IMG/VR virus record: IMGVR_UViG_3300029288_005873
Coordinates: 224,001 to 288,000 of that record
Direction: 5' to 3' (one strand)
Origin: a virus
Taxonomy: Duplodnaviria; Caudoviricetes
DNA length: 64,000 nucleotides
How positions within the stretch are numbered: position 1 is the first letter of the stretch; every line of letters begins with the position of its first letter. Below, piece after piece: positions 6,700 through 22,870 of the stretch. The notes beneath the pieces are model-generated. The model saw only the letters and a program-made list of their open reading frames with translations, ran no database searches and was not told the DNA's origin. The position numbers were made by a program, and so were the translations under genes.

Positions 6700-8205
6700 T
6701 TATGCTCTCGGCTGCTCCGTTGTGACCATGTAGCCGTCCTTGTCCACGATGCGTCTTCCAGACGCCGCCCCGATGGCGGAAGCCTCATCCTCCCACAGGC
6801 TCTCCACCCTTAGGTTGTCCGACACCACGGCGAAGAGACCCAGATGTAGGCGTCGGGAGTATGTCCTTCCGACCAGACCTCGGAAGTCCCCTCTCGCCGG
6901 AAGTCCTCCGATGGGACCGCAGGTCCCTTTCTCCAGAGCCGAAGGCTCCTTGATCTCTTCGGCAGGAGCCGAAGGCTCCTTGACCACGACCTCGTCCTTC
7001 ATGAAATTATCCCACGCTTTCGCCAGCTTCGCGGGCTCCCCTTCGGATACACCGAAGTTCAGCTTCAACTGCCGGAGAACCAACAGTTTCACGCAGCTTA
7101 GCTCCATGCCGGGGATGCTCAGGTTCCTGTACCCGGCACCCTTCTCCGGTTCCCCCTTGACTTTCTTTCCATCCACAAGAAGCGTGGGCTTGGGCTGTAG
7201 CTGAATCCTCACCTTCCTGCCGCCCTTCGGACGAGCAGACCCTCTCTCGACAGCCGACCGATGCTTCGTTCCAGCAACATCCCTGATCACGGATAGAACG
7301 GCGAATACATCATCGGGCGAGGCTCCGTCCACCTCGCAGTTACCGGCGTACACATAGTCGCCGTTGAAGTACTCGGTCAGCTGTACCCTCGTGTTCATTC
7401 CGCCTTCCTTGATAGGTGCGGAGCCGGCGCCTTGGCTGACCGCGGCGGCACTCCCATCTAGCTCGAGCTCACCAGACAGGGGGGATGCGCCGGGTTCCTT
7501 CGGCGCCGGCTCCGCATTCGGCTGCGAGGGCTCGGAGCCGGCGGCGGGCTTGGGCGGAGGAGGGTTGTTGATCGGAAAACCCCAGTCATCGTAGTTTGGT
7601 CGGAACGGAGGCTCGCCCGGTTTTCTCACCAGCGGAGGCGGAGCCTTCTCGTCCTCTTCATCCTCTGGGTCGAACTTGCGACCCGACCTCCACCCTGCTG
7701 CCATCTCCAGCCGGTCCAGCACCCCATCGGATGCCTCCAGAACCGACCTGGCTGCCCCCAGGTTTGCATCCGATACCGCCAGAAGCTCCCCAACATTCGC
7801 AACCGACAGGACCGCCTCCACGGACCTCACAGTAGCCTCGGGCGCCATGCGCCCGCCCCTCAGGTTCCACGGATCGGGCGTGTTGCGAACATCGATCGGG
7901 GCGGAGGCCTTGGGCATCCTGAACTCCCCAGAGTTCCCAGATGCCACACACACCTTCCCGTTCCCGCAGGACATCTCCACGTAGTCCTTGTATCCCCAGC
8001 AGGGAGCCGTAGCCGGCTCCCGGACTTTCCCCTGCGGAACCGTGAGGCTGCGGTCGGTCAACCACGCCTGCTCGTCAACCTCATCAGATAGGGCAGGACC
8101 GTAGGCATCCATGTCCCACCTCTCCGGTGCCTCGACATGGGCTCGGTCATGAAGCTCGTCGCGAACATCGTAGCCGGACACTACTTGGCGCATCTTTTTC
8201 TCCAT
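6700..8205 (-). CDS. Hypothetical protein with a Pro-rich linker
   Basis: 501-aa ORF at the left edge of the GC-rich island. Confidence 0.65.
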   Translation of the reverse strand: MEKKMRQVVSGYDVRDELHDRAHVEAPERWDMDAYGPALSDEVDEQAWLTDRSLTVPQGKVREPATAPCWGYKDYVEMSCGNGKVCVASGNSGEFRMPKASAPIDVRNTPDPWNLRGGRMAPEATVRSVEAVLSVANVGELLAVSDANLGAARSVLEASDGVLDRLEMAAGWRSGRKFDPEDEEDEKAPPPLVRKPGEPPFRPNYDDWGFPINNPPPPKPAAGSEPSQPNAEPAPKEPGASPLSGELELDGSAAAVSQGAGSAPIKEGGMNTRVQLTEYFNGDYVYAGNCEVDGASPDDVFAVLSVIRDVAGTKHRSAVERGSARPKGGRKVRIQLQPKPTLLVDGKKVKGEPEKGAGYRNLSIPGMELSCVKLLVLRQLKLNFGVSEGEPAKLAKAWDNFMKDEVVVKEPSAPAEEIKEPSALEKGTCGPIGGLPARGDFRGLVGRTYSRRLHLGLFAVVSDNLRVESLWEDEASAIGAASGRRIVDKDGYMVTTEQPRA

Positions 8206-8240
8206 GGGGTCCGAAGGACCCGAAAAGGTTGATCCCCCAG

Positions 8241-8888
8241 CTACCCCTGACGCTTCACTGTCGTCCTGCCCGGCTCCCTATCCAGAACCACAAGACCTCG
8301 CCTCATCGGCTCAGGCCTGGACTTGTCACCAGCTGAGAACTTCCATGCCTTGCCGTCTCGCGAACACGTCGGGTTACGACACTCGAAGCCATCCGCAGAC
8401 CTGCTGACCGACCACCTCTGACGGCAGTTCGGACACTTCGGCATCGTCTCAGACGGAGGTCCCGATACCATCACCATCTCTATCCCCCTATCCTCCTTGC
8501 CGCCCATGAAGTCCAGCACTCGATCAACATGCTTACACTCGTCTTCGGAACAAGGCGGTCCGCCCGGCTTCCTGCCATCACAGCACATCGAGGATACTAC
8601 CACACCATCCTTGTATGACAAGGACACGTAATGCATGATGGGAAACCACTTCACCCATCCGCACTCCCTCTTGTCCTCGCTACACCTTCCGTTTTTCAGG
8701 CATCCGTGGCACGTCGGATGCCAGTCAGAGACGCGGTATGCCCTGCTCCCCGTCCCAAGCCCGGCGGGAGCTTCGGGCTTAGGAGCCTTCGGCTCCTTGC
8801 CCATGATTCGGTCGATCGCCGCCCCTGTTTCCGCCAGCTTCGCCATCGTGGCAGCAAGTCTGGACCTCAGAACGTCAGATCGCCCCAT
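8241..8888 (-). CDS. Cys-rich zinc-binding protein (SWIM-like CKH and CxxC motifs)
   Basis: Start re-set to MGRSD (AAGGAGG SD). Contains CHGC, C..C..ECKHV and CPNC...C...C. Confidence 0.55.
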   Translation of the reverse strand: MGRSDVLRSRLAATMAKLAETGAAIDRIMGKEPKAPKPEAPAGLGTGSRAYRVSDWHPTCHGCLKNGRCSEDKRECGWVKWFPIMHYVSLSYKDGVVVSSMCCDGRKPGGPPCSEDECKHVDRVLDFMGGKEDRGIEMVMVSGPPSETMPKCPNCRQRWSVSRSADGFECRNPTCSRDGKAWKFSAGDKSRPEPMRRGLVVLDREPGRTTVKRQG

Positions 8889-8987
8889 CGTTTCCTCCTT
8901 GGAATCTTCGGGCGTTGCCCTTGAAAACCTCAATACTCTGTGGGTCTCAAGGGCAGCCCCCGAAGGGCTGCTTAAATTCACTATCGT

Positions 8988-9406
8988 ATTTTGGAGTCAC
9001 CGCTTAGTGCCAGGTCATACCATTCCTCTTCAGGTTAGGTTTTTCCTATTCGCACATGCGCTTCTCGCAGTTCTAGACGTGAATTTTTGAAGCTACAACC
9101 TAGGGCCAGGTCATACTCTTTCCCTCGTTAGCAGGCTTTACAACTCATACCATATACACCTATATGGTACACACATACGCTTATATAAGTTTTAAACATG
9201 AATTTGGAGTTATAACCTAGGGCCAGGTCATACCTTTTCCCTCGTTAGCAGGCTTTACAACTCATACCATATACACCTATATGGTACACACATACGCTTA
9301 TATGTTTTAAACATGAATTTGGAGTTATAACCTAGGGCCAGGTCATACCTTTTCCCTCGTTAGCGTGGATTTTGGGGTCTCTCCATTCGCCCATGCGCTT
9401 CTCGCA
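8988..9406. repeat. Non-coding tandem repeat region (115-117 bp unit with internal palindrome)
   Basis: Units start at 9097, 9214 and 9329 (AACCTAGGGCCAGGTCATAC...), with a degenerate copy at ~9005. Palindrome TACCATATA-CACC-TATATGGTA at 9148 and 9265. A separate 22-bp direct repeat lies at 9048 and 9385. Confidence 0.9.
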
Positions 9407-9559
9407 ATCTTTGATGCTAAACAAAGACAAGAAACCACAGGTTACTTCGGGTGCTCTCGCCACGGCATTTGGTTTTTCCTTACGGGCATTAGTGCCCAAC
9501 TGCCTATGACTTCGATATACAAACTTCCCCTCGGGTCCTGCCTGCTGCCTCCCCCTCAG

Positions 9560-9655
9560 TGGCACCAAGTGGGTTTGAACCACCAGCCCTCTCTGTCCGA
9601 GAGTCGGATACTCGGGACCGGAGCCCCGGTTGCCCGCCCCTGTGGCGGTGGTGCC
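9560..9655 (-). ncRNA. tRNA-like RNA (acceptor stem plus T-arm, no recognisable anticodon arm)
   Basis: GGCACCA/TGGTGCC-A acceptor, GGTGG-TTCAAAC-CCACT T-arm and three internal GC-rich hairpins. Confidence 0.55.
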
Positions 9656-9658
9656 GAA

Positions 9659-9699
9659 ACGGTGGGACCATAACCCTCGTTAAGCTATGGTCCCACCGT
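9659..9699. other. Perfect 14-bp inverted repeat downstream of rpsL
   Basis: ACGGTGGGACCATA-13nt-TATGGTCCCACCGT. Confidence 0.75.
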
Positions 9700-9715
9700 G
9701 CTGCTCAACACTTCC

Positions 9716-10120
9716 CTACTTCTTCGCCCGCTTCACCCCGTACTTGCTCCTGCTCTGGTTCCGGGGGTTCTTCTCACCACCGTTGCGGACCGTGTCTCCC
9801 GCAGCATCCGTCCCCTTGGCACCACGCACGATGTGATACTTCACACCGGGCAGGTCCTTCACCCTGCCGCCCCTGATCAGCACCGTCGAGTGCTCCTGCA
9901 GGTTGTGCCCGATTCCCGGGATGTACGCGATCACCGTGATCCCGTTCGACAGCCTCACCACCGCCACCTTGCGGTTCGCGGAGTTCGGCTTCTTCGGACC
10001 GACGGTGTACACCCTCAGGCACACACCCTTGCGCTGCGGACATCCCTGAAGCGCTGGCGCCTTGGATTTGTTCGCCAAACGCTTCCTACCTTGCCTCACC
10101 AGCTGGTTGATCGTCGGCAT
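9716..10120 (-). CDS. rpsL: 30S ribosomal protein S12 (uS12), stand-alone
   Basis: MPTINQLVR..., [42 protein letters not shown]. True start at 10120 (134 aa) with a GGAGG SD. Confidence 0.97.
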
Positions 10121-10442
10121 CTCCGTCCTCCTCTTCCTGAAGCATTGCGTCGATTTCCTCGATTTCATCCTCCGAGACACCATTGTCCAGGAGGATTTTC
10201 CTCATTTCCTCGATACTACACTCCTCGAGCACGATCTCCCTGCGATCACCCTTCTTCGCAAGGATGTGGTCCAGCTCCTTCTCATGCTTCGCCGCCTCGT
10301 GCCGCAGACGGTTGACGCACGAAAGAAGCTTCTCGTTCTTCACGTGAGCCTTCTTCAGAAGATCCATCATCTCCTCGGCCATCGATGATACCGTTGATAC
10401 CGCATCCAGACGCTCCGTGACCGAACTCGAATTCGAACCCAT
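10086..10442 (-). CDS. Hypothetical coiled-coil/acidic protein overlapping the rpsL start
   Basis: AAGGAG SD; 118 aa. Confidence 0.65.
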
Positions 10443-10481
10443 CGCTCATCTCCTTATCGGGCTGTAATCCTCACGTCCCTT

Positions 10482-10545
10482 TCCATCCCTCTGCGTTTTC
10501 ACGGGCTTGGGACCGTCGTCCCTTTGGGACGGCCGCATTGATGGA
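10482..10545 (-). ncRNA. Twister ribozyme (type P1), copy A
   Basis: UCCAU CAA UGCG GC CGUCCC-AAA-GGGACG ACGG UCCCAAGC CCGU GAAAA CGCA GAGGG AUGGA. P1, P2, P3, P4, the conserved L4 UCCCAAGC and the GAGGG pseudoknot partner are all present. Confidence 0.9.
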
Positions 10546-10760
10546 GCCCGCCTAGCGCCTGGATGCGCATCGGCGGGCGGCACGGATATGTGCCTTGTGC
10601 GCTCCCCAATTGTATGATCCGCATGTCGGGGAATGTCTTCCTCTCGCTTAGCGGGGAAGCTCTGTCCCATGCGGACCGCCCCATGTAGACTGTCCGCTAG
10701 CTGGGGCGCAAATGCCAGCGGACCAAGTATGCTCAAATAGTGACGGGAATCTCATTCCCT
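10546..10760 (-). ncRNA. Candidate multi-stem structured RNA upstream of twister A
   Basis: Several GC-rich stems (GCCCGCC/GGCGGGC, GGCAC/GUGCC, UCCGCAUG/CAUGCGGA, GUCCGCU/AGCGGAC) and no credible ORF. Confidence 0.4.
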
Positions 10761-10801
10761 CATCCCTTCTGATGCTGTAGCTATCAGCACCTATTTTTTC
10801 G

Positions 10802-11224
10802 TTAGTTCATCTTGGCGTCCATGGCGGCAACAACATCTGCCGCCATCTCCTCTACCGCCTTGTCGATCCCCATCTCATCGATCATCTCTTGGGCGCTGTC
10901 AGACAGACACATGACATTGACACCCTCCGGCACTAGGTCCAGGTCCTCCTCAGTGAAGAACCCAGCCTCGACCTTGGCGCGGTTCGGAGAGGCTAGGACC
11001 AAGTCCCTGTTGGGCATCTCCACCAGAATGCCGTCGTCCATCAGCTCCACAACCGCATACAGCATCTGTGACCGTCCGAGATCGTCCGAGCACATGTCGC
11101 AGAGCACCTCGAACGAGAAAGGCGCTTTCCTGCCCTCCACCAATCCGAACAGGAAAGCCTCCAGAACCTGGCTCCTCATTGTCTGATACCCGAATATCGC
11201 CTCTTCCGTCCTGTAAATCTTCAT
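10802..11224 (-). CDS. Hypothetical protein (possible winged-helix-like N-terminus)
   Basis: 140 aa with a GGAG SD. Confidence 0.6.
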   Translation of the reverse strand: MKIYRTEEAIFGYQTMRSQVLEAFLFGLVEGRKAPFSFEVLCDMCSDDLGRSQMLYAVVELMDDGILVEMPNRDLVLASPNRAKVEAGFFTEEDLDLVPEGVNVMCLSDSAQEMIDEMGIDKAVEEMAADVVAAMDAKMN

Positions 11225-11267
11225 GGTCGTCTCCCCTTGTATGATGAGGTGGACTCTCCCACGATCT

Positions 11268-11633
11268 CTAGCGCACTTTGAATCCAGCCTCCATGCATTT
11301 CCAGCGCGGAACTTCGGCTCCTACGGAGCCCATGAACCGTTCCGAGAGAAGCCGCGCTGAGAATTCGTCCCTCGTCATCGCGAACGCCAGAACCGCACAC
11401 CACCCCTCCTGCTTGGCCAGGTCCATCGTCAGCAGCTCCATGGGAATGCTCCTGGCGCTGGACAGGGAATTGTTGTCCGTGTCGCTGAGCTTCAGCAGCA
11501 TCTCCAGACCGCTGAGGACCTGTTCCATGTGCGATTCCATGGCATCATCGGTCACGTTATTGCTGACCCAAAGCCGGAGAGACACTACCAGTCCAGCTAT
11601 GAGATCCCTGTTTACCGGAACCATGACTTTCAT
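11268..11633 (-). CDS. Hypothetical protein
   Basis: Start re-set to MKVMVP (AGGAGG SD). Confidence 0.6.
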   Translation of the reverse strand: MKVMVPVNRDLIAGLVVSLRLWVSNNVTDDAMESHMEQVLSGLEMLLKLSDTDNNSLSSARSIPMELLTMDLAKQEGWCAVLAFAMTRDEFSARLLSERFMGSVGAEVPRWKCMEAGFKVR

Positions 11634-11720
11634 GTCGTTCCTCCTAGGGTTGTACACCTTTCCAGGAAAATTTCTCCTGGACCGAAATGCCGATCTGAGT
11701 TTTGGGAAAAACGCTAAGGC

Positions 11721-11948
11721 TCAGAAGTCAGAGTGCTCCTTTGTGCGGTAGTTAACCACATCCTCCACAAACTCCTGAATGGAACCTACCCACACTTGGA
11801 TATACTCCGGCAGCCCGAAGGGACGAATTATGTTCTCTGGCTTTGTCCCCTCTGGCACCACACCCAACAGCTCGGGTGAACTGTATGAGCCGCCTATCCA
11901 GCAAACCACGAGCGGTTTCGGTTTGACACGTCTTACCTTGTCAGCCAT
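11721..11948 (-). CDS. Hypothetical protein
   Basis: 75-aa ORF. Confidence 0.55.
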   Translation of the reverse strand: MADKVRRVKPKPLVVCWIGGSYSSPELLGVVPEGTKPENIIRPFGLPEYIQVWVGSIQEFVEDVVNYRTKEHSDF

Positions 11949-11986
11949 GGCTTTAACACCTTTTGGCTATTTTTCAGCCACGCATT

Positions 11987-12016
11987 AAAAGCCCCCCAGG
12001 AGGTATTCTGGGGGCT
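11987..12016 (-). terminator. Probable intrinsic terminator
   Basis: GC-rich hairpin (GCCCCCAG...CUGGGGGGC) followed by UUUUA on the minus strand. Confidence 0.55.
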
Positions 12017-12053
12017 CTATGGCTCCGGGTCCTGCGGACCCATCCATGCTTTT

Positions 12054-12260
12054 CTACGTCCCCGCCGTTTCCGCAGCCTCATTGAGGGCTCGGGAGATCC
12101 TTTTGCTGAGCTGGGTCGGGGTCATATTCTCCAAGGCTGCCTCCAGGAGGTTGCCTGCTGCTTCGAGGAGGGTTCGTGTTACGCGATCAAGTTCCAGCTC
12201 GGCGATTGTCCACGTCTCCGCCATCATGGTAGCGACGCTTTCCCTCTGCTCTTTGGTCAT
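12054..12260 (-). CDS. Hypothetical protein directly downstream of twister B
   Basis: 68 aa with an AAGGA SD. Confidence 0.6.
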   Translation of the reverse strand: MTKEQRESVATMMAETWTIAELELDRVTRTLLEAAGNLLEAALENMTPTQLSKRISRALNEAAETAGT

Positions 12261-12284
12261 GGCGTTGTCCTTTCACCTACATTT

Positions 12285-12350
12285 CCCCACCCCTCCGCAT
12301 TTGCACGGGCTTGGGACCGTCGTCCCGAAGGGACGGCTGCGTTATGGGAG
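12285..12350 (-). ncRNA. Twister ribozyme (type P1), copy B
   Basis: CUCCCA UAA CGCA GC CGUCCC-UUC-GGGACG ACGG UCCCAAGC CCGU GCAAA UGCG GAGGG GUGGGG. P2 shows compensatory changes (CGCA/UGCG) relative to copies A and C. Confidence 0.88.
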
Positions 12351-12417
12351 GGGCGCGAGGCGCCCCTTTATGTAGGACCTCCGGTCCTTGGTAGGGGAGT
12401 TGTAGAGCTTCTAGCTC

Positions 12418-12882
12418 TTAGTCGGTGGTGGGGCGCTCGGCGGGGCGGTCGTCGTCCCAGGTATCGGAGCCGATGGCGACGACGGAGCAGCTGAGCTGGA
12501 GGGCGAGACCGGCGACAGTGGCTTTGCCGTTGGCGTAGAAGCCGCACTTGCCGGAGGCGAAGATACGGGCGGTGGCGACGGTCTGGTCGATTTTGAGGGA
12601 CTTGAGGGTCTGGGGCTCGAGGGCGAGGAACTTCTGGATATCCTCGTCCTTGAGGCGTTTGGGGTCATCGGGCTTGGAGTGGGCGAGGGTGACGTTGAGG
12701 GAGACCTGGAAGGTCTTGGGCTCTCCGGCGACGTCGAGGGTGACCTTGCCGTTGTGGTTGAACCCCACCGAGCCGGTGGAGTTGGTGCGGGGCTCCATGG
12801 CACCGACGCCCAGCTGCTTGAGGCTGATGCTGCCCATGGTCAGGACGTCGCTCTTGAACCCCTCGGTCTGCTTCTTCGACAT
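12418..12882 (-). CDS. Hypothetical protein with an internal duplicated beta-rich motif, flanked by twister ribozymes
   Basis: Repeats PRTNSTGSVGFNHNGK...QVSLNVTLAHSK and ARIFASGKCGFYANGK...QLSCSVVAIGSD. AAGGAG SD and strong GC3 codon bias. Confidence 0.75.
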   Translation of the reverse strand: MSKKQTEGFKSDVLTMGSISLKQLGVGAMEPRTNSTGSVGFNHNGKVTLDVAGEPKTFQVSLNVTLAHSKPDDPKRLKDEDIQKFLALEPQTLKSLKIDQTVATARIFASGKCGFYANGKATVAGLALQLSCSVVAIGSDTWDDDRPAERPTTD

Positions 12883-12923
12883 GGTACATTCTCCTTCGGG
12901 ACCTTTGGTCCCATGTTAGGGTT

Positions 12924-12988
12924 GCGCCCCTCTGCGTTCGTCCGGGCTTGGGACCGGCGCCTCACCATTGAGGCGGCCGCATTGGCGC
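12924..12988 (-). ncRNA. Twister ribozyme (type P1), copy C
   Basis: GCGC CAA UGCG GC CGCCUCA-AUGG-UGAGGCG CCGG UCCCAAGC CCGG ACGAA CGCA GAGGG GCGC. P3 and P4 covary with copies A and B. Confidence 0.92.
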
Positions 12989-13086
12989 TGGAGGGGTTGA
13001 GTATCAGAGCCCCCTCCGGGCTCCGGGGTTGGGCCAGGCTATGCGCCCCCTTCCAACCACTGGCGGCGTCCCGCCAGATGAGATGT

Positions 13087-13266
13087 CTATCGCGTGATTC
13101 CCATCAACTGCTCGGCCTTCCTCGTGTTCCTGGTCCTGTAGTGGAGGGGGCGGCATTTATTGATGTCCCCAGCAGCCCTCCTACGGCTTGGCGGACAGAT
13201 CTCCACCTCCACCGTTTGCCCATCAATCACCTCGATGCGGACATTCTTGGCTTTCATCGCCTTCAT
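13087..13266 (-). CDS. Small basic hypothetical protein (59 aa, below ORF track cutoff)
   Basis: MKAMKAKNVRIEVIDGQTVEVEICPPSRRRAAGDINKCRPLHYRTRNTRKAEQLMGITR, just downstream of a promoter-like repeat. Confidence 0.5.
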   Translation of the reverse strand: MKAMKAKNVRIEVIDGQTVEVEICPPSRRRAAGDINKCRPLHYRTRNTRKAEQLMGITR

Positions 13267-13290
13267 CCTTGGCAGCGATTTTCCCTCGCG

Positions 13291-13331
13291 GGTTCAAAAC
13301 ATCCGCGGAAATTTTTCGCTGCAAAAATTTT
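13291..13331 (-). promoter_or_regulatory. Duplicated promoter-like element, copy 1
   Basis: Near-identical to 17421..17464. Minus strand reads A/T tract, TTGCAG, 17 nt, TGTTTT. Confidence 0.55.
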
Positions 13332-13396
13332 TCATCCATCGCGCAGGATCTTACTGTTCCGGGAAACTCCTGTGGCAATTACCTCATTTGAGCCTC

Positions 13397-13915
13397 CTAG
13401 GGAAGGATGAGGACTTCACGAAACATAGACCATGTTCCTGGGGCATAGAACCTAATACAATGGTCTATGACGGGATCAATGCTGAATGGGTCCATAAGGA
13501 CCGGTTTTCCGTCATTGTTCAGCATGACCTGAAGGTCTTGTGGCTCCATGTCGTGGTCCAGGAGAGTTTTGGCTATGACCTTCATGTCACTCAGAATCGG
13601 CTCCCAACCTCCTATTGCGTTTAGCAGGGGCATGACGGCGGCAGCCGCATTCCATCCATAGAAGGCGTCCAGGATTTCGACGGTCGGCACGAAGGGGCGC
13701 ATCCTATCCAGGCAGTTGTGTTCCTTCTTCAGTTGGACTGCGTGCTCGGTCAGCGCGACCGCCCGGTCGCCACTGGCGTAGACCAGCTTGTACCCACCTT
13801 CGCCCAGCCAGCGGGAGAACGGGTGCGCTTCCACGATTCGGCGGACACCCGTATCCGTGATGAGCTGTGCTACCCATTCTGGGGCATCTGGGAGTAGGAC
13901 CTCTTGACGCACCAT
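13397..13915 (-). CDS. Minimal protein kinase-like protein
   Basis: Gly-rich loop LGEGGYKLVY, helix-C Glu (KKEH), catalytic loop-like QDLQVM and DG..VLMDP. Confidence 0.6.
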   Translation of the reverse strand: MVRQEVLLPDAPEWVAQLITDTGVRRIVEAHPFSRWLGEGGYKLVYASGDRAVALTEHAVQLKKEHNCLDRMRPFVPTVEILDAFYGWNAAAAVMPLLNAIGGWEPILSDMKVIAKTLLDHDMEPQDLQVMLNNDGKPVLMDPFSIDPVIDHCIRFYAPGTWSMFREVLILP

Positions 13916-13916
13916 G

Positions 13917-14180
13917 TTATTCCACCTGTTCTAGCTCTCCGATGGAGACGGAAAGTGTGTGGAAGTTAAAGTTGGACCTCAGGAAACCGGAAGCGTCCAT
14001 GACTCGTTCTCCGCGCTCCCAGGCAGCGATGGTGTTCCAGTTCCCGCAGACTGACTCGAACTTGACCTGAACCGGAACGAACGTGTTACCCGTATGGGCG
14101 ACGACCCGTCCCACCTTTGTACGTTTCCCATCGGTCGAACGCCAGATGACCATGGAGCCGATGGCAGGAAGGCTTGTCAT
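13917..14180 (-). CDS. Hypothetical protein (SH3-like beta pattern)
   Basis: 87 aa, ATGA-coupled to the upstream gene. Confidence 0.5.
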   Translation of the reverse strand: MTSLPAIGSMVIWRSTDGKRTKVGRVVAHTGNTFVPVQVKFESVCGNWNTIAAWERGERVMDASGFLRSNFNFHTLSVSIGELEQVE

Positions 14181-14653
14181 TCCTGCACGATGTGGGGTCC
14201 CTCGTGGTCCTTTGCCGTGCGCCAGCAGTAGGTGCGCCCTTCGAGGGTAATATACATTCCAAGCTCATCCTTGCCGGTGAAGGTGCCGTACTGGACGACT
14301 CGGTTCCAGACTGCCATGGATACTTTCTCCATGACCGGGAGGATGTGCTCGGCATTAATCTGCTTCACCTGAGGACGGACGCTTTCGGCAAAGAGAGCGT
14401 ACGCCAGGCTTTCGGCGTCTCCTTTGGTGGGCGCGTTCATTTCCATCTTGATGGTGACCAGGAAGCGTTTCATGATGGTCATTCCTTTCTGGTGTCCGTA
14501 GAACAGGAAAAACATACAGGAGCTGCCATAGTGCTCCAGCCGCAGCTTCCTGGAGATGTCGCATTTCCCCTCGATGCGAACTCCCATGCACGAGGTTTCC
14601 ATACCCATGTACTACCAGTGAGCACAGAAGTTACAGGTGTGTCTGTTGTCCAT
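14177..14653 (-). pseudogene. ORF with an in-frame TAG at codon 14 interrupting a CxxCxHW...C...C zinc motif
   Basis: ATG 14653 with an AGGAG SD reads MDNRHTCNFCAHW*YMGMETSCMGVRIEGKC... in frame with the 14177..14608 ORF. A further SD-supported start lies near 14473-14482. Confidence 0.45.
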
Positions 14654-14661
14654 GGCTTCTC

Positions 14662-15000
14662 CTACGGCTGGACGGGTCCCTCGGCGAAATCCTGGCGCGC
14701 CTCCAGGTCGATCTGGCGGTACCGCGCCATCTTCTCCTCGTAGTTGGGCTGGCGAGGGAGGTACTGACCGGCGTCGCCGAAGTCCTCCAAAGGGCAGCAG
14801 GACTCCATGCAGCTGACATGGTCGAGAACGTTCAGGAAATACCAGGCAGCCTGGTCAGCGTCGTTCAGCATGGGGCGGAACCCGAGGTACGACGGAGCCG
14901 TCTCGGGGAGCTCGAACCGGCGAAAGAAGTAGCCGTCGAAGTTGCTCTTGTTCAGGACAGCCACGTATCTCCTGCTGGGGGACACCATGTTCTTGGTCAT
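14662..15000 (-). CDS. Hypothetical protein
   Basis: AAGGAG SD; 112 aa. Confidence 0.6.
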   Translation of the reverse strand: MTKNMVSPSRRYVAVLNKSNFDGYFFRRFELPETAPSYLGFRPMLNDADQAAWYFLNVLDHVSCMESCCPLEDFGDAGQYLPRQPNYEEKMARYRQIDLEARQDFAEGPVQP

Positions 15001-15030
15001 TGGTTCTCTCCTTGAGGGACCTGCGGTCCC

Positions 15031-15702
15031 CTACTTGCGGTTGAACTCCTCGTAGTTCTTGAGCTGGGGGTCGTTGTCCTCGCCCCACCGCTGGTTCAGA
15101 CCCCGCTCCAGGAACAACTCCTCCTGGAGATGCGCCCATTCGATCGCCTTGGTGGCATTAGAGATGCTCGCTCTTACCAAGGCGGTACCGATTTCGTCAC
15201 TATCCCAGCACTCGTCGATGCTGGAACAGGAGCCGCGCCCCACCTTCGGGTCCAACCTGATGGCTTCCACCAGAGCGGGCATGTTGACCGCAGCTTTCCA
15301 GGCGGTCAGCGCCGCGCAGTCAACCGTCCGCTGCCACAGGCACTCATCGCACTTGGCGCACTTCGCGCAGGGGTGTACTACTTGCTTCACCTCGCGGGTC
15401 GCGAACCAACCCGCATCCGGGTTGTGGGTCTCCTTCCGGAACTCGGAGAGGTCGGCAGTGTAGCCACCAGAGCAGCGCAGGCACTGACTCCACCACGCGC
15501 CATTCTGCTGAACCTTCCAGCCACGGATGACGACCTGGTTCTTCAGGGTCGGATGAACCTCAGGAGCGCCACACGTCGGACACTCCATCGGCGTACCCTG
15601 AACGTGGAACCGCTCGGTCTGGCTTACACTGCCGCACATGCAGGGAAGCGCCCAGGAGGGACGCGCTACGCCCAGCAGACGACCGCACTTTGCGCACCGC
15701 AT
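15031..15702 (-). CDS. Cys-rich hypothetical protein
   Basis: Multiple CxxC motifs; AAGGAGG SD. Confidence 0.6.
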   Translation of the reverse strand: MRCAKCGRLLGVARPSWALPCMCGSVSQTERFHVQGTPMECPTCGAPEVHPTLKNQVVIRGWKVQQNGAWWSQCLRCSGGYTADLSEFRKETHNPDAGWFATREVKQVVHPCAKCAKCDECLWQRTVDCAALTAWKAAVNMPALVEAIRLDPKVGRGSCSSIDECWDSDEIGTALVRASISNATKAIEWAHLQEELFLERGLNQRWGEDNDPQLKNYEEFNRK

Positions 15703-15716
15703 CAGAGGCCTCCTTG

Positions 15717-15896
15717 CTAGAAAGACACCGGCTTCCTGTCGAGTACGACCATCTCGTGAATCCTGGCCGAGTCGATACCCGACTCCTTCGCAGCCAGGAC
15801 CAACGTCCTGCTGTACATCTCGCTGTCGCCGTCACGCAGATAACGGCGAAGCAGGTTGATGTACAACACCGTGGCGTACGCTTTTCCGGGCTCCAT
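15717..15896 (-). CDS. Small hypothetical protein (59 aa, not in ORF track)
   Basis: MEPGKAYATVLYINLLRRYLRDGDSEMYSRTLVLAAKESGIDSARIHEMVVLDRKPVSF with a GGAGG SD. Confidence 0.6.
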   Translation of the reverse strand: MEPGKAYATVLYINLLRRYLRDGDSEMYSRTLVLAAKESGIDSARIHEMVVLDRKPVSF

Positions 15897-15968
15897 GAGA
15901 ACCCTCCCGAGTTGTTGCGACCCCCCCTATGAAACCTGGGTCTTTGTTGGGATTTTCGATCGGTTTTG

Positions 15969-16229
15969 CTAGCGCACCCTCGTCTTGGCGGCGAGGATGG
16001 CCGCGATCGCAGCGCGGCGCAAAGGTCGCGAGCGACCCGCAGCCTGAAGCGCCTCCATGAGCGGCGCCGCCTTGGGAAGCGCCAGGTGAAGACGCGACCG
16101 AGCGGTCAGCAGATCACGGTCAAACTCACCCGCAATCATGCGGTACACCATGGTGTCCTTGAGACCCGCACGCTCGAGGCGGTTGATGAACCTGTACGCC
16201 TGCGTCCTGAAAGGGCACGTCACTCTCAT
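15969..16229 (-). CDS. Hypothetical basic protein
   Basis: AAGGAGG SD. Confidence 0.6.
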   Translation of the reverse strand: MRVTCPFRTQAYRFINRLERAGLKDTMVYRMIAGEFDRDLLTARSRLHLALPKAAPLMEALQAAGRSRPLRRAAIAAILAAKTRVR

Positions 16230-16308
16230 GTCTCGACCTCCTTGGGTTGGGTAAGCACCTGAACGATTTCAGGCACTTACCGAGCCTAAAGCTCGGTCGA
16301 TTAGGACG

Positions 16309-16695
16309 CTAAGCGTCCTTGTCCGCATCCAGCAGGTCGCGCTGAATGCTGTCCACCTCAGCTAGCACTTCCGCCAGCCGCTGCTCCAACTTGACCAACT
16401 GGAGACCACGCTTCAGGGGCGTCATGTCCTCGTCCGCCTTCACACGTTCCAGTCTCGCATGAAGCACGCGGGCTGTCGCCATCAGCGAAGTCACTCGCCT
16501 CTCAGGCGTTAAATTCCCCGCCTTGAGGTCATCCGTGTTCTCCACGCCACGCCCTACCGCCCTACCACCCACTAGCTCCTCCAGCCGCTCGGCGCTCTGG
16601 TTCTTGATGTTGCTCGCCCTCGTCGCAGAGCGCCCGCCCCTCGGGCGGATTTGCTGCTGCTCCACGTACCCGAACACCACCTTGACGTCAGCCAT
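16309..16695 (-). CDS. Hypothetical coiled-coil protein
   Basis: AAGGAGG SD; overlaps the upstream gene. Confidence 0.6.
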   Translation of the reverse strand: MADVKVVFGYVEQQQIRPRGGRSATRASNIKNQSAERLEELVGGRAVGRGVENTDDLKAGNLTPERRVTSLMATARVLHARLERVKADEDMTPLKRGLQLVKLEQRLAEVLAEVDSIQRDLLDADKDA

Positions 16696-17374
16696 CGATC
16701 TCCTCCTTGGCGAAAGCCGCTCGGCACGCCTCCCGCCTCGCCATCATGACGCGCCGCGCCTCCTTGGCAGCCCGGCGCTCCGCCCTGGCGTTGCGATCGG
16801 CGTACCCATTCGGATCGGTACGCCGCCACTTCTCCCCCATCTCCGCCGCTCGAGCCGCCTTGCGCTCCTTGCGGTTCTGCTGAGCCTTGTGGCTCATACC
16901 CGCTTGGTCCAAGATCTCGCCGCAGCAGAACCCGTAGCCGTACCACTGCTCGCTGCTCGTCGCCCTTAGCGCCAGTGCGACTGGGGTGATGATGGCGCGG
17001 GACGGTATGGAAGGCGGGTACACTATGTCAGCCGGAGTCTTGATATATCGTTCCGGCACTACGGGCTGTATCATCTCCAACCAATCAGAGCGGAACACCA
17101 TCTGGTCCGCTATGGCTGTGATGGCATAGCCTTCGCGCGAACCATTACCTACGCGCGTGGGCGCTCCCATCTCGCGTGCCTGTTTGGCCAGACGCCCATC
17201 CACGCTGCCCTCCCACTTCGCGACAAACTTGCGTCCCAGGCCCGCTACCCAGCGCGCCACCCTTCCTAGCGCCTGGGTCTCGTTCTCCGCCTCCACCATC
17301 CCTACCACCTTGGTGGGGAACCGAAGGGCATGGCAAAGCAGGATTGCCTGGTTCAGGATGACATACCGTAGCAT
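16688..17374 (-). CDS. Hypothetical protein with an Arg/Ala-rich C-terminus (first gene of the GC-rich island)
   Basis: Probable start MLRYV. Confidence 0.55.
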   Translation of the reverse strand: MLRYVILNQAILLCHALRFPTKVVGMVEAENETQALGRVARWVAGLGRKFVAKWEGSVDGRLAKQAREMGAPTRVGNGSREGYAITAIADQMVFRSDWLEMIQPVVPERYIKTPADIVYPPSIPSRAIITPVALALRATSSEQWYGYGFCCGEILDQAGMSHKAQQNRKERKAARAAEMGEKWRRTDPNGYADRNARAERRAAKEARRVMMARREACRAAFAKEEIDG

Positions 17375-17420
17375 CTCGCTCCCCTTTCCGCTGCCTTGCC
17401 TCAAGGCGCAAGGCTGGCAA

Positions 17421-17464
17421 GGTTCAAAACATCCGCGGAATTTTTCCGCTGCAAAAAAATTTTT
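17421..17464 (-). promoter_or_regulatory. Duplicated promoter-like element, copy 2
   Basis: GGTTCAAAACATCCGCGGAA.TTTT.CGCTGCAAAAA is shared with 13291. Confidence 0.55.
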
Positions 17465-17690
17465 GGCAAGATTTTTGCTAAGCCGAAAGCGCTACGTGCC
17501 GGGACCTGCGGTCCCTAGTACCACGGATTGTAGCAAGTCGGACTCCGGGGATAACAATACACCGACTTGTACCAAATGCTAACAACGTAGCTATGGCTAT
17601 GACATTTTTGTCATTGCCCTATGACATGCACGCCACTGCGCGCGAGCTCGGCTATGACTGCGGCGTCACAGCTCCCCCGTCTCCTATAAA

Positions 17691-17740
17691 AAGGTGGGGG
17701 ATAGTGGAAAAGAGTGGAGAAAAGTGGAACACAGTGGGAA
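17691..17740 (+). promoter_or_regulatory. Five GTGG direct repeats at exact 10-bp spacing (MraZ-operator-like array)
   Basis: GTGG at 17694, 17704, 17714, 17724 and 17734 in an A-rich context. Confidence 0.55.
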
Positions 17741-17953
17741 GAACATAGTAAAACGTACTAAAAGACAGGGTTAGTGTACAAAATATAAGTACATAAAAAC
17801 ACCAATGTTTTAGCATAGTTACGCTATTAAAAATAGCTCTAAAAAAAACTCAATGATTCCCAGGTCTTCCTTGAACGTTTAGGGATAGTTGGAAAAGGAT
17901 TCTTGTACGGAGTAATGGGGTATTTTATGGGTAGGTTTTACAAAAATGAAAAA

Positions 17954-18538
17954 CTAAGGTTTTCCAATTGTATCAAAGATTGCTTTAAGCAGAAGGGTAT
18001 TACTGGCTATATGGACTATGCCATCGGAGAGTTCATAGCGGAGCATTCCTTGAGGATCAGCATAAACGGAGATATCCACGAAGGGGAGATTTCTTTGAGC
18101 ACATCCTTGGGAAAGAATGTGATTAGCGAGGATTGTATAGGCGGCACGTTCTTGGTCAGAACCTGCTACGGGGAATTCATCACGGTCAATGCGCAATTTT
18201 GGGGCAGGTGGAACTATGCCAAGGATTGCTGGTTTAGGGGTAAGTTGAGATGCCTTATCCAAATACAGGTCAATCCACTCTTGAAGGAGGGGTTGAGGTT
18301 GTCTTCCTCTATTTTTCACATGGACATCGACCCAACAACGCATGTCTATTTCGCCAAAGCAAAGAAGGAGGGAATCCTCCGGGGCGAATTGTATAGAGGC
18401 GACGGAATCAAGGAGTAGTGTTTCATTAGGGTGTCCTATACGTTTAAGGGTAACTGGACCGAGCCAATGAGTGGTAAAACCTGGAGTTTTTTCAAAGGGG
18501 ATGAAGCAGTGGGAGTCGCCCATTGTATGAATTGTCAT
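17954..18538 (-). CDS. SGNH/GDSL-like hydrolase or acyltransferase
   Basis: N-terminal GDSH, FGEID.R and C-terminal DG.VH. Confidence 0.65.
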   Translation of the reverse strand: MTIHTMGDSHCFIPFEKTPGFTTHWLGPVTLKRIGHPNETLLLDSVASIQFAPEDSLLLCFGEIDMRCWVDVHVKNRGRQPQPLLQEWIDLYLDKASQLTPKPAILGIVPPAPKLRIDRDEFPVAGSDQERAAYTILANHILSQGCAQRNLPFVDISVYADPQGMLRYELSDGIVHIASNTLLLKAIFDTIGKP

Positions 18539-19179
18539 ATTGCCGCCTCCATGGCAATTTTGAGGTTTTGGGGATCAAGGAGGTTGTATAATCCAGCAAG
18601 AGTTGGGATATTATGTATAGAGCAGTAATCATTCCAGCCGGCGAAGTCAGACCAGGCATATACAAAGACAAAGCCGATATTAGCGGATTGGGCAGCCTGA
18701 TGATCTAAGCGGGAATCACCTATATAGAGTGCTGGGTGTTGGACATTGAGTTTACGTAGGATATTGTGTTTAGGTTCAGGGGCACCAAGGATATCATCAA
18801 ACAAGTTAAGAAGACCTTTATGGTCTAGAGCTTCAGATATTTCATTAGGATCCCCTCCCGAGACAACGATCCATGTTGTATTGGGAAGGAGATTTTTAAG
18901 TTGGCGTAATGGGGCGCAGGGAGCGGACAGGAGGGATGCGCGCACATAAGAAGCATAGGAAGCAACGAGGGGTTCTATTGGTTCTTGACTTTTTATGATA
19001 TTACGCAGGAAGTGCTCAAATTTAGCATAGCGCGTCATTCCGCCATTTTGGAGATGGTAGTTAACTAGAGCCTGTGAGGGAACTTTTCCAAAGGGGGCTG
19101 TTGTTTGCCTAAAGGCTTCAGTTTTTAGGGGGTTAGAGTTAAATATAGTTCCATCGCAGTCAAGGATTAAAGTTTTCAC
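18535..19179 (-). CDS. HAD-superfamily phosphatase
   Basis: LDCDGT motif I, VSGG motif II, K...IGDS..D motifs III/IV. Confidence 0.9.
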   Translation of the reverse strand: MKTLILDCDGTIFNSNPLKTEAFRQTTAPFGKVPSQALVNYHLQNGGMTRYAKFEHFLRNIIKSQEPIEPLVASYASYVRASLLSAPCAPLRQLKNLLPNTTWIVVSGGDPNEISEALDHKGLLNLFDDILGAPEPKHNILRKLNVQHPALYIGDSRLDHQAAQSANIGFVFVYAWSDFAGWNDYCSIHNIPTLAGLYNLLDPQNLKIAMEAAI

Positions 19180-19892
19180 AGGCCTCTCCTACGCAGGGCG
19201 GTTTCGGCGATTAGGATATCGTCAAAGGTATCGACTGGGATAGAATCGGAAGACATAGGGATCATATGGACATCCATACCCAATTCAAGGAAGCGGAGTA
19301 TTTCGATATCCTCTATAGATTCCAAAGGTGTTTTGCCCGATTTTGCGAAGATTTCGAGGGAAGTTTTAGGGAAGGCATAGAGGCAGACCTGTCTATGAGC
19401 GCCGGAGAATGAGAGAGTTTTTGTAGTTGGGATAGGGGCACGAGAAGCATAGAGGAGGCGCCCATCTGGGCGCACGACAACCTTTGGCATAGAGGGGCTA
19501 GTGAAAGTTTGTTCAGAAAGGGGACAGAAGCCATTGAGCACTCTATCTGGGTAGAGATCAGATTGTGCGATAAGGGTTAAGAGGTCATTGGGATTAAGCA
19601 AGGGTTCATCGCCTTGGACATTGATACAGCGATCAGCATTAAGAGAATTGAGTGCGAAAGCGACTCTATCTGTTCCTGTAGGGCATTGTGGGGTCATGAT
19701 ATATTGGATACCATAGAGGGCACAGATGCCGGCGATTTTGACGTCATTAGTAGCGACCCAGAGATTTTGTTTAGGCACCACTTTAAGGCATTGGAGACAA
19801 GTTCTAATGATCATAGGGATACCGTTAAGGAGAATTAAGGGTTTCCCCGGCAAACGTGATGAATCGAAGCGGGCTGGGACGATGACGATCAT
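19176..19892 (-). CDS. kdsB: CMP-Kdo synthetase-like cytidylyltransferase
   Basis: PAR..SSRLPGKPL, TGTDR, NVQGDEP, LE..E.IE.LRFLE.G, VDT..D. Confidence 0.9.
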   Translation of the reverse strand: MIVIVPARFDSSRLPGKPLILLNGIPMIIRTCLQCLKVVPKQNLWVATNDVKIAGICALYGIQYIMTPQCPTGTDRVAFALNSLNADRCINVQGDEPLLNPNDLLTLIAQSDLYPDRVLNGFCPLSEQTFTSPSMPKVVVRPDGRLLYASRAPIPTTKTLSFSGAHRQVCLYAFPKTSLEIFAKSGKTPLESIEDIEILRFLELGMDVHMIPMSSDSIPVDTFDDILIAETALRRRGL

Positions 19893-20812
19893 AGGCGATT
19901 CCTATCGAACTGATTAAGCCCATTGAGTTTTGGGAGAATGCGGGCGATATCGGACAATGAGAGTCCTGAACCAATCATTTCATAGACATATGTAGGATGT
20001 ATATTATGAAGGGCAGCCAGGTGATAGATTGGATTCGGTCCCCAGCCCAGTTTTTCTTGGAGGATTGCGAAGCGTTTCATAATAGTAAGAAGGGGTTGGG
20101 TATTCAAGTTAGGGAACAAATCTGGGAGCAATTGTTCTGTTCTTGTATTACCTGGACCGCGTCCCATACCCAAGATTGTACAATCGACAATTGTGTTTTC
20201 GGAAAGAGCTTGAATTGAGTTAGCCAGAGCCAGACCTCTACTATTATGGGCATGGACGCCTATTTTACCTTGCCATTGTGAACGAAGGGCGGACAGGGCA
20301 TTTGAGACATCTTTAGGGGACATACCGCCCAAGCTATCGGCAATATAGATTACAGAGATAGGTAGGGTAGAAAAGAACATAGCAGCATCCGCGAGTTCGG
20401 AATAGGAACGCAGGGAAGCCTGCATAATATTGACCATGATTTCGAGGCCTTTATTATGTAGTTGTTTTATAAGGGGTGCGGCGGTTAGGATTTCATGGTA
20501 ATGGAATGCTATACGCACCACTGAGATGAGGGAATTTTGGGGGAACATAATTTCCAAGCTAGAGGGATTAAGTTCCGAGGCATTCACCATAACGCAGAGT
20601 TTCTTCTGGTTTTTTGGGAGTGTACGGACAAAGTCATCAGTAGCATTAGCACAGCTCGGAAGGACGTTCCTTGGGGTCCGGAAGCCTATTTCCAGGTAAT
20701 CAACTGGGAGGCTATTCATAGCGATGATATAGTCATCGATAAGATCTTTTGGAAAATTCCAGGCATTCTGATAGCCGCCATCTCTAAGGGTACAATCAAG
20801 AATTTCGACCAT
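19889..20812 (-). CDS. DRE-TIM metallolyase (4-hydroxy-2-oxovalerate aldolase-like)
   Basis: LDCTLRDGGY, ADSLG, HAHN..GLA.AN, GMGRGPGN..TE. Confidence 0.88.
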   Translation of the reverse strand: MVEILDCTLRDGGYQNAWNFPKDLIDDYIIAMNSLPVDYLEIGFRTPRNVLPSCANATDDFVRTLPKNQKKLCVMVNASELNPSSLEIMFPQNSLISVVRIAFHYHEILTAAPLIKQLHNKGLEIMVNIMQASLRSYSELADAAMFFSTLPISVIYIADSLGGMSPKDVSNALSALRSQWQGKIGVHAHNSRGLALANSIQALSENTIVDCTILGMGRGPGNTRTEQLLPDLFPNLNTQPLLTIMKRFAILQEKLGWGPNPIYHLAALHNIHPTYVYEMIGSGLSLSDIARILPKLNGLNQFDRNRL

Positions 20813-21397: not shown

Positions 21398-21423
21398 GCC
21401 TTAATATCAACAAATTGATAGTT

Positions 21424-22799: not shown

Positions 22800-22870
22800 G
22801 ATTAACCCTCCTGTCGTCTAGATGTCCTATAATTGATAGTTTTTACTTGGGTGTGTATACACCAAAATTG

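What the first reader, a model, noticed from the sequence alone, without database searches (positions are those of the whole stretch)
6700..17520. Candidate new system: a GC-rich, ribozyme-segmented expression island carrying translation-modifying cargo
Seen together in one visibly GC-richer block: two copies of a promoter-like element, three twister ribozymes in intergenic gaps, recurrent GGACC/GGTCC hairpins, a minimal kinase, a stand-alone uS12, a tRNA-like RNA and a tandem-repeat array. All are co-oriented and begin just after an AT-rich non-coding hub. Inference: an early host-takeover region whose long transcripts cut themselves into defined mRNA units without host RNases and deliver a variant decoding-centre protein.
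Basis: partly seen in the sequence, partly recalled or inferred. Interest (0 to 1): 0.85.

Follow-up and report, generated by a model that had tools for sequence, protein, structure and literature searches.

The report
Phage early region carrying ribosomal S12
An 11-kb GC-rich block of a 442-kb bacterial virus, probably the first part to enter the cell, has self-cutting RNAs in front of three genes (a known arrangement) and its own version of the ribosome's decoding protein S12, which belongs to a virus-specific family that I found no report of.

Summary
The block is real and native to a circular 442-kb phage. Single contigs bridge both borders, and it shares the genome's GGCC/TGCA avoidance. 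Confirmed parts:
- three intact type-P1 twister ribozymes, each 26-41 nt before a start codon
- seven island-only GGWCC triloop hairpins
- a HopBF1/RIO-like minimal kinase
- a stand-alone uS12
- a deviant tRNA-like RNA and a 117-bp repeat

It is not one new system. The promoter-like 28-mer has eight copies genome-wide. Co-orientation is genome-wide. High GC is the lineage norm, kept here while the rest of the genome is AT-rich. Twisters in front of phage genes are common, were proposed as mRNA processors before, and this scan found them on other DNA. Most uS12 phages lack twisters.

Best reading: a first-entering early region like the SPO1 host-takeover module (about 0.6; termini not mapped).

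The new part is uS12. Fourteen stand-alone copies in phage-type contexts carry a C-terminal insertion and frequent changes beside the decoding loop. They are under purifying selection, and 12 of them form one clade apart from cellular uS12. uS12 is absent from the published viral ribosomal-protein survey, and this scan had not seen it on other DNA. Its function is untested.

The parts
17520..17953 (.). Non-coding gap ('hub') at the sharp compositional border; candidate genome start or end of a terminal repeat
   Evidence: GC 0.417; GC3 jumps from 0.38 to 0.77 across it. Bridged by one 78.6-kb contig.
17501..17515 (.). GGWCC triloop hairpin 1, at the island's upstream edge
17426..17453 (-). Promoter-like 28-mer, copy 1 of 8 in the genome
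   Evidence: promoter function inferred
14662..17374 (-). Six small ORFan genes (228, 128, 86, 59, 223 and 112 aa), GC3 0.77-0.87
   Evidence: the 59-, 223- and 112-aa genes are syntenic in L364
15016..15030 (.). GGWCC hairpin directly before the SD of the 112-aa gene
   Evidence: absent at this site in relative L364
13917..14608 (-). 143-aa and 87-aa ORFan genes
   Evidence: a 143-aa homologue is fused to the 112-aa gene in L364
13397..13915 (-). 172-aa minimal protein-kinase-like gene (HopBF1/RIO-like fold)
   Evidence: AF2 pLDDT 90.4; best VIA match HopBF1 6pwd Z 10.3, rmsd 3.7, 136 aligned, tied with Rio1 Z 10.2. Gly loop, K43, E65 and D142 invariant, D127 near-invariant, in 10 sequences. 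dN 0.18, dS 0.81 against L364.
13296..13323 (-). Promoter-like 28-mer, copy 2
13087..13266 (-). 59-aa ORF
12924..12988 (-). Twister-P1 ribozyme 3; predicted cut 12984/12983; ends 41 nt before the start of the 154-aa gene
12898..12912 (.). GGWCC hairpin between twister 3 and the SD
12418..12882 (-). 154-aa two-repeat beta-rich protein, highest GC3 of the island genes (0.93), flanked by two twisters; paralogue at genome 221.9 kb; fold unassigned
12349..12387 (.). Two hairpins (GGWCC type and an 8-bp stem) between the stop codon and twister 2
12287..12348 (-). Twister-P1 ribozyme 2; predicted cut 12344/12343; ends 26 nt before the 68-aa gene
12054..12260 (-). 68-aa ORF
11993..12041 (-). GGWCC hairpin followed by a terminator-like stem-loop with T tail
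10802..11948 (-). 75-, 121- and 140-aa ORFan genes
   Evidence: the 121- and 140-aa genes are syntenic in L182
10483..10544 (-). Twister-P1 ribozyme 1; predicted cut 10540/10539; ends 40 nt before the 118-aa gene
   Evidence: identical in L182; a twister lies upstream of the homologous gene in L087
10086..10442 (-). 118-aa helical partner gene directly upstream of uS12
   Evidence: Homologues precede uS12 in L001, L087, L181, L182 and L184
9716..10120 (-). Stand-alone phage-type uS12 (134 aa): +10-residue C-terminal insertion, T39V/T40G/L48N (E. coli numbering), K42, K43, PNSA, K87 and D88 kept
9655..9710 (-). Long near-perfect hairpin after the uS12 stop
   Evidence: z -7.66
9559..9655 (-). 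tRNA-like RNA (Arg-CCG-type loop, acceptor and T arms intact, extra arm, no CCA)
   Evidence: ARAGORN only
8990..9410 (.). 117-bp tandem repeat (2.4 copies) plus degenerate copies, GC 0.43
   Evidence: collapsed into a deeper contig in the source run
8241..8981 (-). Cys-rich ORFan, up to 246 aa
8207..8221 (.). GGWCC hairpin directly before the SD of the 496-aa gene
6700..8190 (-). 496-aa ORFan containing the last GGWCC hairpin (6913-6927); downstream edge of the island

Best explanation
The block is the first-entering, earliest-expressed region of a huge tailed phage whose host is GC-rich, possibly a Polyangia-type myxobacterium. It may be a long terminal repeat, collapsed in the circular assembly. 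INFERRED: host RNA polymerase or a phage sigma factor starts at the 28-mer and makes polycistronic RNAs. INFERRED from intact structure: the three twisters cut these RNAs, so the 154-, 68- and 118-aa/uS12 messages begin with a 5'-OH and a folded leader just before their SD, and the 154-aa gene becomes a monocistron of about 640 nt. SHOWN: the block keeps the lineage's GC-rich codon use while the rest of the genome is AT-rich and carries its own tRNAs, mostly for A-ending codons. INFERRED: this is because these genes must be read with host tRNAs before phage tRNAs accumulate, perhaps helped by copy correction between repeats. SHOWN: the cargo includes a conserved phage-specific uS12 and a minimal kinase fold. 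INFERRED: uS12 enters newly assembling 30S subunits and retunes or protects decoding during infection. The ribozymes, kinase and uS12 are separately assorting early-gene parts, not an obligate unit.
For: Native: single contigs of the source run span both borders with no mismatches; contigs from a second study match island and flanks; GGCC/TGCA avoidance is 0.25/0.32 in the island and 0.24/0.31 elsewhere, against 0.88-0.98/0.68-0.83 in Myxococcota loci. Early position: GC3 jumps from 0.38 to 0.77 at the upstream border, then falls with distance in the direction of transcription (rho -0.58, p 6e-22, first 200 kb, island excluded) to about 0.3 in the structural genes that end just before the border. 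All 8 copies of the 28-mer lie in the first 165 kb after the border. Codons read by the phage's tRNAs are depleted in the island, e.g. CAA 0.15 vs 0.48, CCA 0.12 vs 0.44. Repeat hint: the inner contig has depth 28.9 against 21.6-22.2 for flanking contigs, and the mixed contig (24.1) fits a predicted 24.4. Twisters: both pseudoknots 100% paired, with compensatory changes. uS12: dN/dS about 0.15-0.4; 12 phage rows form one clade, 99/95.
Against: Termini are not mapped. The depth ratio is about 1.35, not 2, and GC bias of the library could give it. Non-coding island DNA is also GC-rich (0.57), so codon selection alone does not explain the block. The colinear relative G158 shows no GC3 gradient (rho 0.05), though its record lacks this region. 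The host assignment is weak: 85/86, not starred, and grouping with a verrucomicrobial uS12 is not rejected (p-AU 0.21). In other phages uS12 often sits in tRNA/tmRNA arrays, which need not be early.
Confidence: 0.6

Rival explanations
1. The block is a mosaic segment taken by recombination from a GC-richer relative of the same phage group. The GC contrast records that exchange, not timing or genome ends, and the gradient beside it records older exchanges in the variable region.
For: Relatives are GC-rich: G158 0.557 with orthologue GC3 about 0.70, L087 0.575, L181 0.61. Non-coding DNA is GC-rich too. L087 shares the GGCC/TGCA avoidance (0.30/0.18). The hairpin family and the twisters occur only inside the block.
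Against: Apart from uS12 itself (83%), island genes are no closer to L087 than flanking genes are (34-49% vs 37-61%). The block carries the genome's own 28-mer twice. A G158-like donor is disfavoured (GGCC 0.85). The GC3 decline is smooth over 200 kb. This rival is compatible with the block also being early.
Confidence: 0.22
2. One reading: one integrated new system in which ribozyme segmentation exists to deliver translation-modifying cargo (uS12, tRNA mimic, kinase).
For: 154-aa homologue, twister, 118-aa homologue, uS12 in that order in L087; twister, 118-aa gene, uS12 in L182; L181 has the three genes in order and a twister about 5.7 kb upstream of uS12.
Against: No twister in the uS12 phage records G003, G004 and G005 (the same search finds 3 in G000), or in loci L088, L090, L093, L175, L176 and L178. 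None of 80 twister-bearing viral loci shares an island gene. In L087 another gene starts 3 nt after uS12, with no tRNA-like RNA or repeat. The kinase was found next to island genes only in one close relative.
Confidence: 0.13
3. Assembly chimera, or a piece of host chromosome.
For: Sharp GC step, and a gene usually taken as cellular.
Against: Both borders are bridged. There is no rpsG or str operon. Homologues of island genes lie among homologues of other G000 genes in independent samples. The palindrome signature is the phage's. uS12 groups with other stand-alone phage copies.
Confidence: 0.02

Closest known systems
SPO1 host-takeover module (26 small early genes in the 12.4-kb terminal region; PMC6873191); T5 first-step-transfer DNA and the RNase III-processed T7 early region (both from memory)
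   Same: About 11 kb of small ORFans with strong SD sequences at a putative genome end; hairpin-rich; includes a kinase gene, as the T7 early region does (from memory).
   Different: Termini, timing and toxicity are unproven here. Processing would be by ribozymes, not RNase III. It carries a ribosomal protein. There is no sequence homology.
Type-P1 twister ribozyme (Rfam RF03160) near phage genes; polycistron processing proposed in PMC6765202
   Same: P1, P2 and P4 stems, both pseudoknots, the cleavage-site A and the general-base G motif are present; each lies 26-41 nt before a start codon.
   Different: Scores fall 2-8 bits under the gathering cut-off. Two copies have C rather than U before the cut. 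One copy heads the uS12 message.
Virus-encoded ribosomal proteins (bS21, bL12, HPF, bL31, bL33, uS9, bS6, uL11, uS15, bL19, bS20, uL10, uL2, bL9, eS30; PMC6375957)
   Same: A single ribosomal gene outside its operon, in large phages, under purifying selection.
   Different: uS12 was among the profiles searched there and was not found. That paper argues that viruses favour loosely bound, exchangeable proteins; uS12 is a decoding-centre protein built in during assembly (established knowledge). The phage copies form their own clade with an insertion.
HopBF1 minimal kinase (PDB 6pwd; phosphorylates HSP90, PMC9950578) and RIO kinases
   Same: Minimal kinase fold, Gly loop, Lys-Glu pair, DLQ and DP motifs.
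   Different: 16% identity; a tie with RIO1; no secretion context; substrate unknown.

Membership tests
Twister ribozyme type P1 | P1, P2 and P4 stems in P1 topology | tested here: met
   Full-length RF03160 matches, model 1-68; P2 and P4 100% paired with compensatory changes
Twister ribozyme type P1 | Two pseudoknots and the conserved cleavage-site A and general-base G | tested here: met
   Both pseudoknots paired in all 5 distinct sequences, each with a two-sided change in L181; A6, A7 and the GAGG motif invariant
Twister ribozyme type P1 | Rfam gathering score 67.2 bits | tested here: not met
   65.1, 60.6 and 59.5 bits, E 4e-13 to 1e-11; a curation threshold rather than a structural feature
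Twister ribozyme type P1 | Self-cleavage | not testable with these tools
   needs in vitro transcription
uS12 family | PF00164 domain with PKKPNSA and RVKDLPG motifs | tested here: met
   118 bits against cut-off 22.3; motifs invariant
Virus-encoded ribosomal protein | Encoded in a genuine viral genome, outside the str operon | tested here: met
   TerL present; CheckV 100%; 126-bp end overlap; no rpsG; borders bridged
Virus-encoded ribosomal protein | Purifying selection and recurrence in independent viruses | tested here: met
   dN/dS about 0.15-0.4; 14 full-length stand-alone copies
Virus-encoded ribosomal protein | Incorporation into host ribosomes | not testable with these tools
   needs expression and mass spectrometry of ribosomes
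SPO1-type host-takeover module / terminal early region | Lies in a long terminal repeat or at the first-injected end | tested here: inconclusive
   Depth about 1.35x, GC3 step and gradient; only contigs were available, no raw reads
SPO1-type host-takeover module / terminal early region | Small genes with strong ribosome-binding sites | tested here: met
   19 genes, 15 of them under 200 aa, most with a clear SD
SPO1-type host-takeover module / terminal early region | Strong host sigma-70-type promoters | tested here: inconclusive
   Sigma-70 sites at chance level, 5 vs 4.6; a conserved non-consensus 28-mer instead; the host's promoter consensus is unknown
SPO1-type host-takeover module / terminal early region | Early expression and host-inhibitory products | not testable with these tools
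   no expression data in hand
HopBF1 kinase family | Minimal kinase fold with catalytic Lys, Glu and two Asp | tested here: met
HopBF1 kinase family | Specific kinship to HopBF1 rather than to other atypical kinases | tested here: inconclusive
   Z 10.3 vs 10.2 for Rio1, a tie; no sequence hit in PDB
Canonical tRNA | Cloverleaf matching RF00005 | tested here: not met
   no Rfam match at E<=5; ARAGORN call only; extra arm, no linker, no CCA

The most novel reading that the evidence does not exclude
A widespread clade of large phages has domesticated uS12. The phage copy, with its tail insertion and T40/L48 changes, is made early from a ribozyme-capped mRNA, together with a small partner protein, and is built into new 30S subunits. 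This gives infection-specific ribosomes with altered accuracy or resistance to a host translation-blocking defence. It would be a natural case of a virus replacing a decoding-centre protein.
Probability: 0.3. Interest if true: 0.88.

Novelty: new variant of a known kind. Interest (0 to 1): 0.6.

Why it matters
Known viral ribosomal proteins are mostly peripheral and exchangeable. A conserved phage-only family of the protein that sets decoding accuracy would extend that picture, and it gives a direct test of whether phages make specialised ribosomes. The locus is also a clean test bed for an open question, what bacterial and phage self-cleaving ribozymes do: three predicted cut sites, one gene excised between two of them. 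The genome-wide GC3 gradient could be a sequence-only readout of expression time and genome start in huge phages. The 'island system' as such is an assembly of known kinds of parts.

Tried and rejected
- Chimera or host DNA: rejected.
- Island-specific promoter: rejected, 8 copies. The motif was not found in IMG/VR or in four terminase relatives.
- Rfam at gathering threshold missed the twisters; E-value mode found them.
- The 19 uS12 hits in the GenBank phage collection look like host contigs or host-containing records, judged by record names and sizes; I did not open them. L002, L003, L005 and L177 have rpsG beside rpsL and are host flanks; L004 ends just after a cellular-type rpsL.
- G158-G161 gave no uS12, twister or 154-aa gene. 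G158 stops exactly where this region would begin and the others are 40-75% complete, so this shows nothing.
- 154-aa protein: model pLDDT 67, best Z 4.2, no fold assigned.
- Pfam and PHROGs named no island gene but uS12.
- No RtcB gene in the phage, so circularisation of the doubly cut 154-aa mRNA would need a host ligase; not pursued.
- No RpoB-like domain.
- No RNA holder listed.
- TerL is closest to small Bacillus-phage terminases at only 26%, too far to infer the packaging mode.
- The larger mixture-model tree left phage and Polyangia-type uS12 unresolved.
- Literature search covers the open-access library only; a report of phage uS12 elsewhere cannot be excluded.


Full report
VERDICT. 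The block is best read as the native early region of a huge phage, built from known kinds of parts. One part, a phage-specific uS12 family, appears to be unreported.

SETTING. The window lies in a single 441,904-bp contig of GC 0.439 with a 126-bp end overlap. It is classed as a virus record, CheckV 100%. It encodes a terminase, two sigma-70 region-2 proteins, 23 tRNA calls and a tmRNA; no RpoB-like domain was found. Of 553 called ORFs, 505 are on the minus strand, so co-orientation of the island says nothing. The DNA is held by landfill metagenomes.

IS THE BLOCK NATIVE? Yes. GC is 0.588 in 6700-17520, the genome's maximum. In the probable source run one contig covers 2713-9148 and another covers 12975 onward for 78.6 kb, both without mismatches, so both borders are bridged. 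Runs of a second study hold related pieces of island and flanks at low depth. The island avoids GGCC and TGCA exactly as the rest of the genome does (0.25/0.32 vs 0.24/0.31), unlike Myxococcota loci.

WHY IS IT GC-RICH? The difference is largest at third codon positions: most island genes have GC3 0.62-0.93, against 0.26-0.51 per 10-kb bin elsewhere. GC3 jumps from 0.38 to 0.77 across the 430-bp gap at 17.5-17.95 kb. It then falls with distance in the direction of transcription (rho -0.58 over the first 200 kb with the island left out) and is lowest in the structural genes that end just before the gap. A colinear relative, G158 (TerL 83%), has GC 0.557 and orthologue GC3 near 0.70 everywhere; L087 and L181 are GC-rich too. 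High GC is therefore typical of the group, and this phage is the AT-rich one. The phage's tRNAs mostly read A-ending codons, which are common outside the island and rare inside it. This fits earliest genes that depend on the tRNAs of a GC-rich host (inference). Non-coding island DNA is also GC-rich (0.57), so a regional cause may contribute. Contig depths (28.9 inside, 21.6-22.2 outside, 24.1 for the mixed contig against 24.4 predicted) give about 1.35-fold. That hints at a collapsed terminal repeat, but library GC bias could also produce it.

PROMOTER-LIKE MOTIF AND HAIRPINS. The 28-mer occurs eight times, all on the minus strand, between genes, within 165 kb downstream of the gap; two copies are in the island. 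It is not a sigma-70 consensus. The GGWCC-N3-GGWCC hairpins are island-specific: seven copies, shuffled mean 0.14. The first and last bracket the block, three lie directly before an SD, and both stem orientations occur, which favours structure over an operator sequence. One is missing at the same site in relative L364. Their role (5' stabilisers, or DNA hairpins) is open.

TWISTERS. Three full-length RF03160 matches, the only ones in the genome. Across the window, L087, L181 and L182, the stems and both pseudoknots pair in 94% of cells, with 12 pairs changed on both sides, including one in each pseudoknot (only five distinct rows, so this is supporting rather than statistical). They end 41, 26 and 40 nt before the starts of the 154-, 68- and 118-aa genes. 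Cleavage would give 5'-OH messages with a folded leader, which host 5'-end-dependent nucleases attack poorly (established knowledge), and would excise the 154-aa gene as a unit. The arrangement is common. An exact twister-core pattern matches at least 100 IMG/VR stretches, and 26 of 68 distinct ones have an SD and start within 80 nt on the same strand, against 9 in the antisense control. Processing of polycistronic RNA and a link to phage genes are already proposed (PMC6765202). Earlier notes of this scan describe the same layout in several other phages.

uS12. The gene starts at 10120 behind a strong SD and has no rpsG in the genome. Closest relatives also stand alone among small ORFans or tRNA/tmRNA arrays: IMG/VR records L001 (193 kb), L006, L175, L176, L178 and L179, and contigs L087, L088, L090, L093, L184, L362 and L363. 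Every stand-alone copy has 16-25 residues where most cellular proteins have 9; the cellular exceptions (17 residues) are Polyangia-type Myxococcota and a Methylacidiphilales genome. The IMG/VR search used motifs outside the insertion, so this is not only query bias. T40 is replaced in 12 of 14 phage copies against 3 of 189 cellular ones; L48 is N in 9 of 14 against 0 of 189; K87/D88 are kept in 13. dN/dS is about 0.15-0.4. With the insertion removed, 12 phage rows form one side of a branch at 99/95, next to the Polyangia-type rows at 85/86 (112 columns, LG+G4, two long rows left out). The larger mixture-model tree did not resolve this. The survey of viral ribosomal proteins searched PF00164 and lists no uS12 (PMC6375957); three literature searches found no report. 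A homologue of the 118-aa gene precedes uS12 in five relatives.

DO THE PARTS TRAVEL TOGETHER? Partly. The 154-aa homologue, twister, 118-aa homologue and uS12 stand in that order in L087. L182 keeps twister, 118-aa gene and uS12. L181 keeps the three genes, with a twister further upstream. More distant uS12 phages have no twister, and twister-bearing viral loci share no island gene. The tRNA-like RNA and the repeat are absent behind uS12 in L087. The link is thus confined to one sub-lineage.

KINASE AND REMAINING PARTS. The 172-aa protein folds confidently (pLDDT 90.4) into a minimal kinase; HopBF1 and Rio1 tie as best matches. Catalytic positions are conserved in a small family, probably phage-rich. 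The substrate is unknown, and nothing shows that it modifies translation. The tRNA-like RNA has intact acceptor and T arms and an Arg-CCG-type loop but fails the Rfam model. The 117-bp repeat is real and AT-richer than the island; its function is unexplained.

MECHANISM AND ODDS. Early, first-entering region with ribozyme-processed messages and retained host-type codon use: 0.6. Mosaic import from a GC-rich relative as the main cause: 0.22. Obligate new system: 0.13. Chimera: 0.02. Shown: sequence anatomy, nativeness, ribozyme structure, the uS12 family and its selection, the kinase fold. Inferred: termini, timing, promoter function, cleavage in vivo, host identity and all effects on translation.

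SCORE. Interest 0.6, carried mainly by the phage uS12 family; the ribozyme layout alone would be ordinary.

Noticed in passing
whole genome G000: GC3 falls steadily from the island round the circle, while a colinear relative has GC3 near 0.70 everywhere: a genome-wide AT shift with a positional gradient.
   Followed up: partly
window 17954-23305: Block of sugar/capsule-type genes (HAD, cytidylyltransferase-like, aldolase-like, glycosyltransferase-like, radical SAM, methyltransferase; named by eye) whose GC skew is opposite to that of the rest of the minus-strand genes; possibly a separate acquisition.
   Followed up: no
G000 76212, 103505, 128560, 169649, 182237, 210061 (minus strand): Six further copies of the 28-mer between genes; four are preceded by a second shared box reading GATCGCGCG.
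   Followed up: partly
L184:940-1362: A close uS12 relative has a weak bL12 match two genes downstream, so possibly two ribosomal proteins in one phage locus.
   Followed up: no
L006:9000-14000: uS12 of an unrelated 117-kb phage record also sits in a local GC peak (0.50-0.55 against about 0.43).
   Followed up: no
L001, L088, L090, L093, L178: uS12 lies beside tmRNA or long tRNA arrays; L088 and L093 also have an RF-1-domain gene nearby, suggesting a translation-rescue neighbourhood.
   Followed up: partly
L307:930-2000: Three tandem twister ribozymes in repeated units of a 63-kb viral contig, each preceded by a similar short hairpin.
   Followed up: no
L087:5823-5965 and window 10545-10800: Structured-looking non-coding stretches next to the twister that precedes the 118-aa gene; the window's stretch is nearly identical in L182.
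   Followed up: no
window 1266-2093: Endonuclease VII-type gene on the opposite strand with low GC3 (0.30), shared with L087; likely a homing endonuclease.
   Followed up: no
L186-L215: Cellular uS12 of one part of Myxococcota, and of a Methylacidiphilales genome (L069), carries an 8-residue insertion at the same place as the phage proteins.
   Followed up: partly
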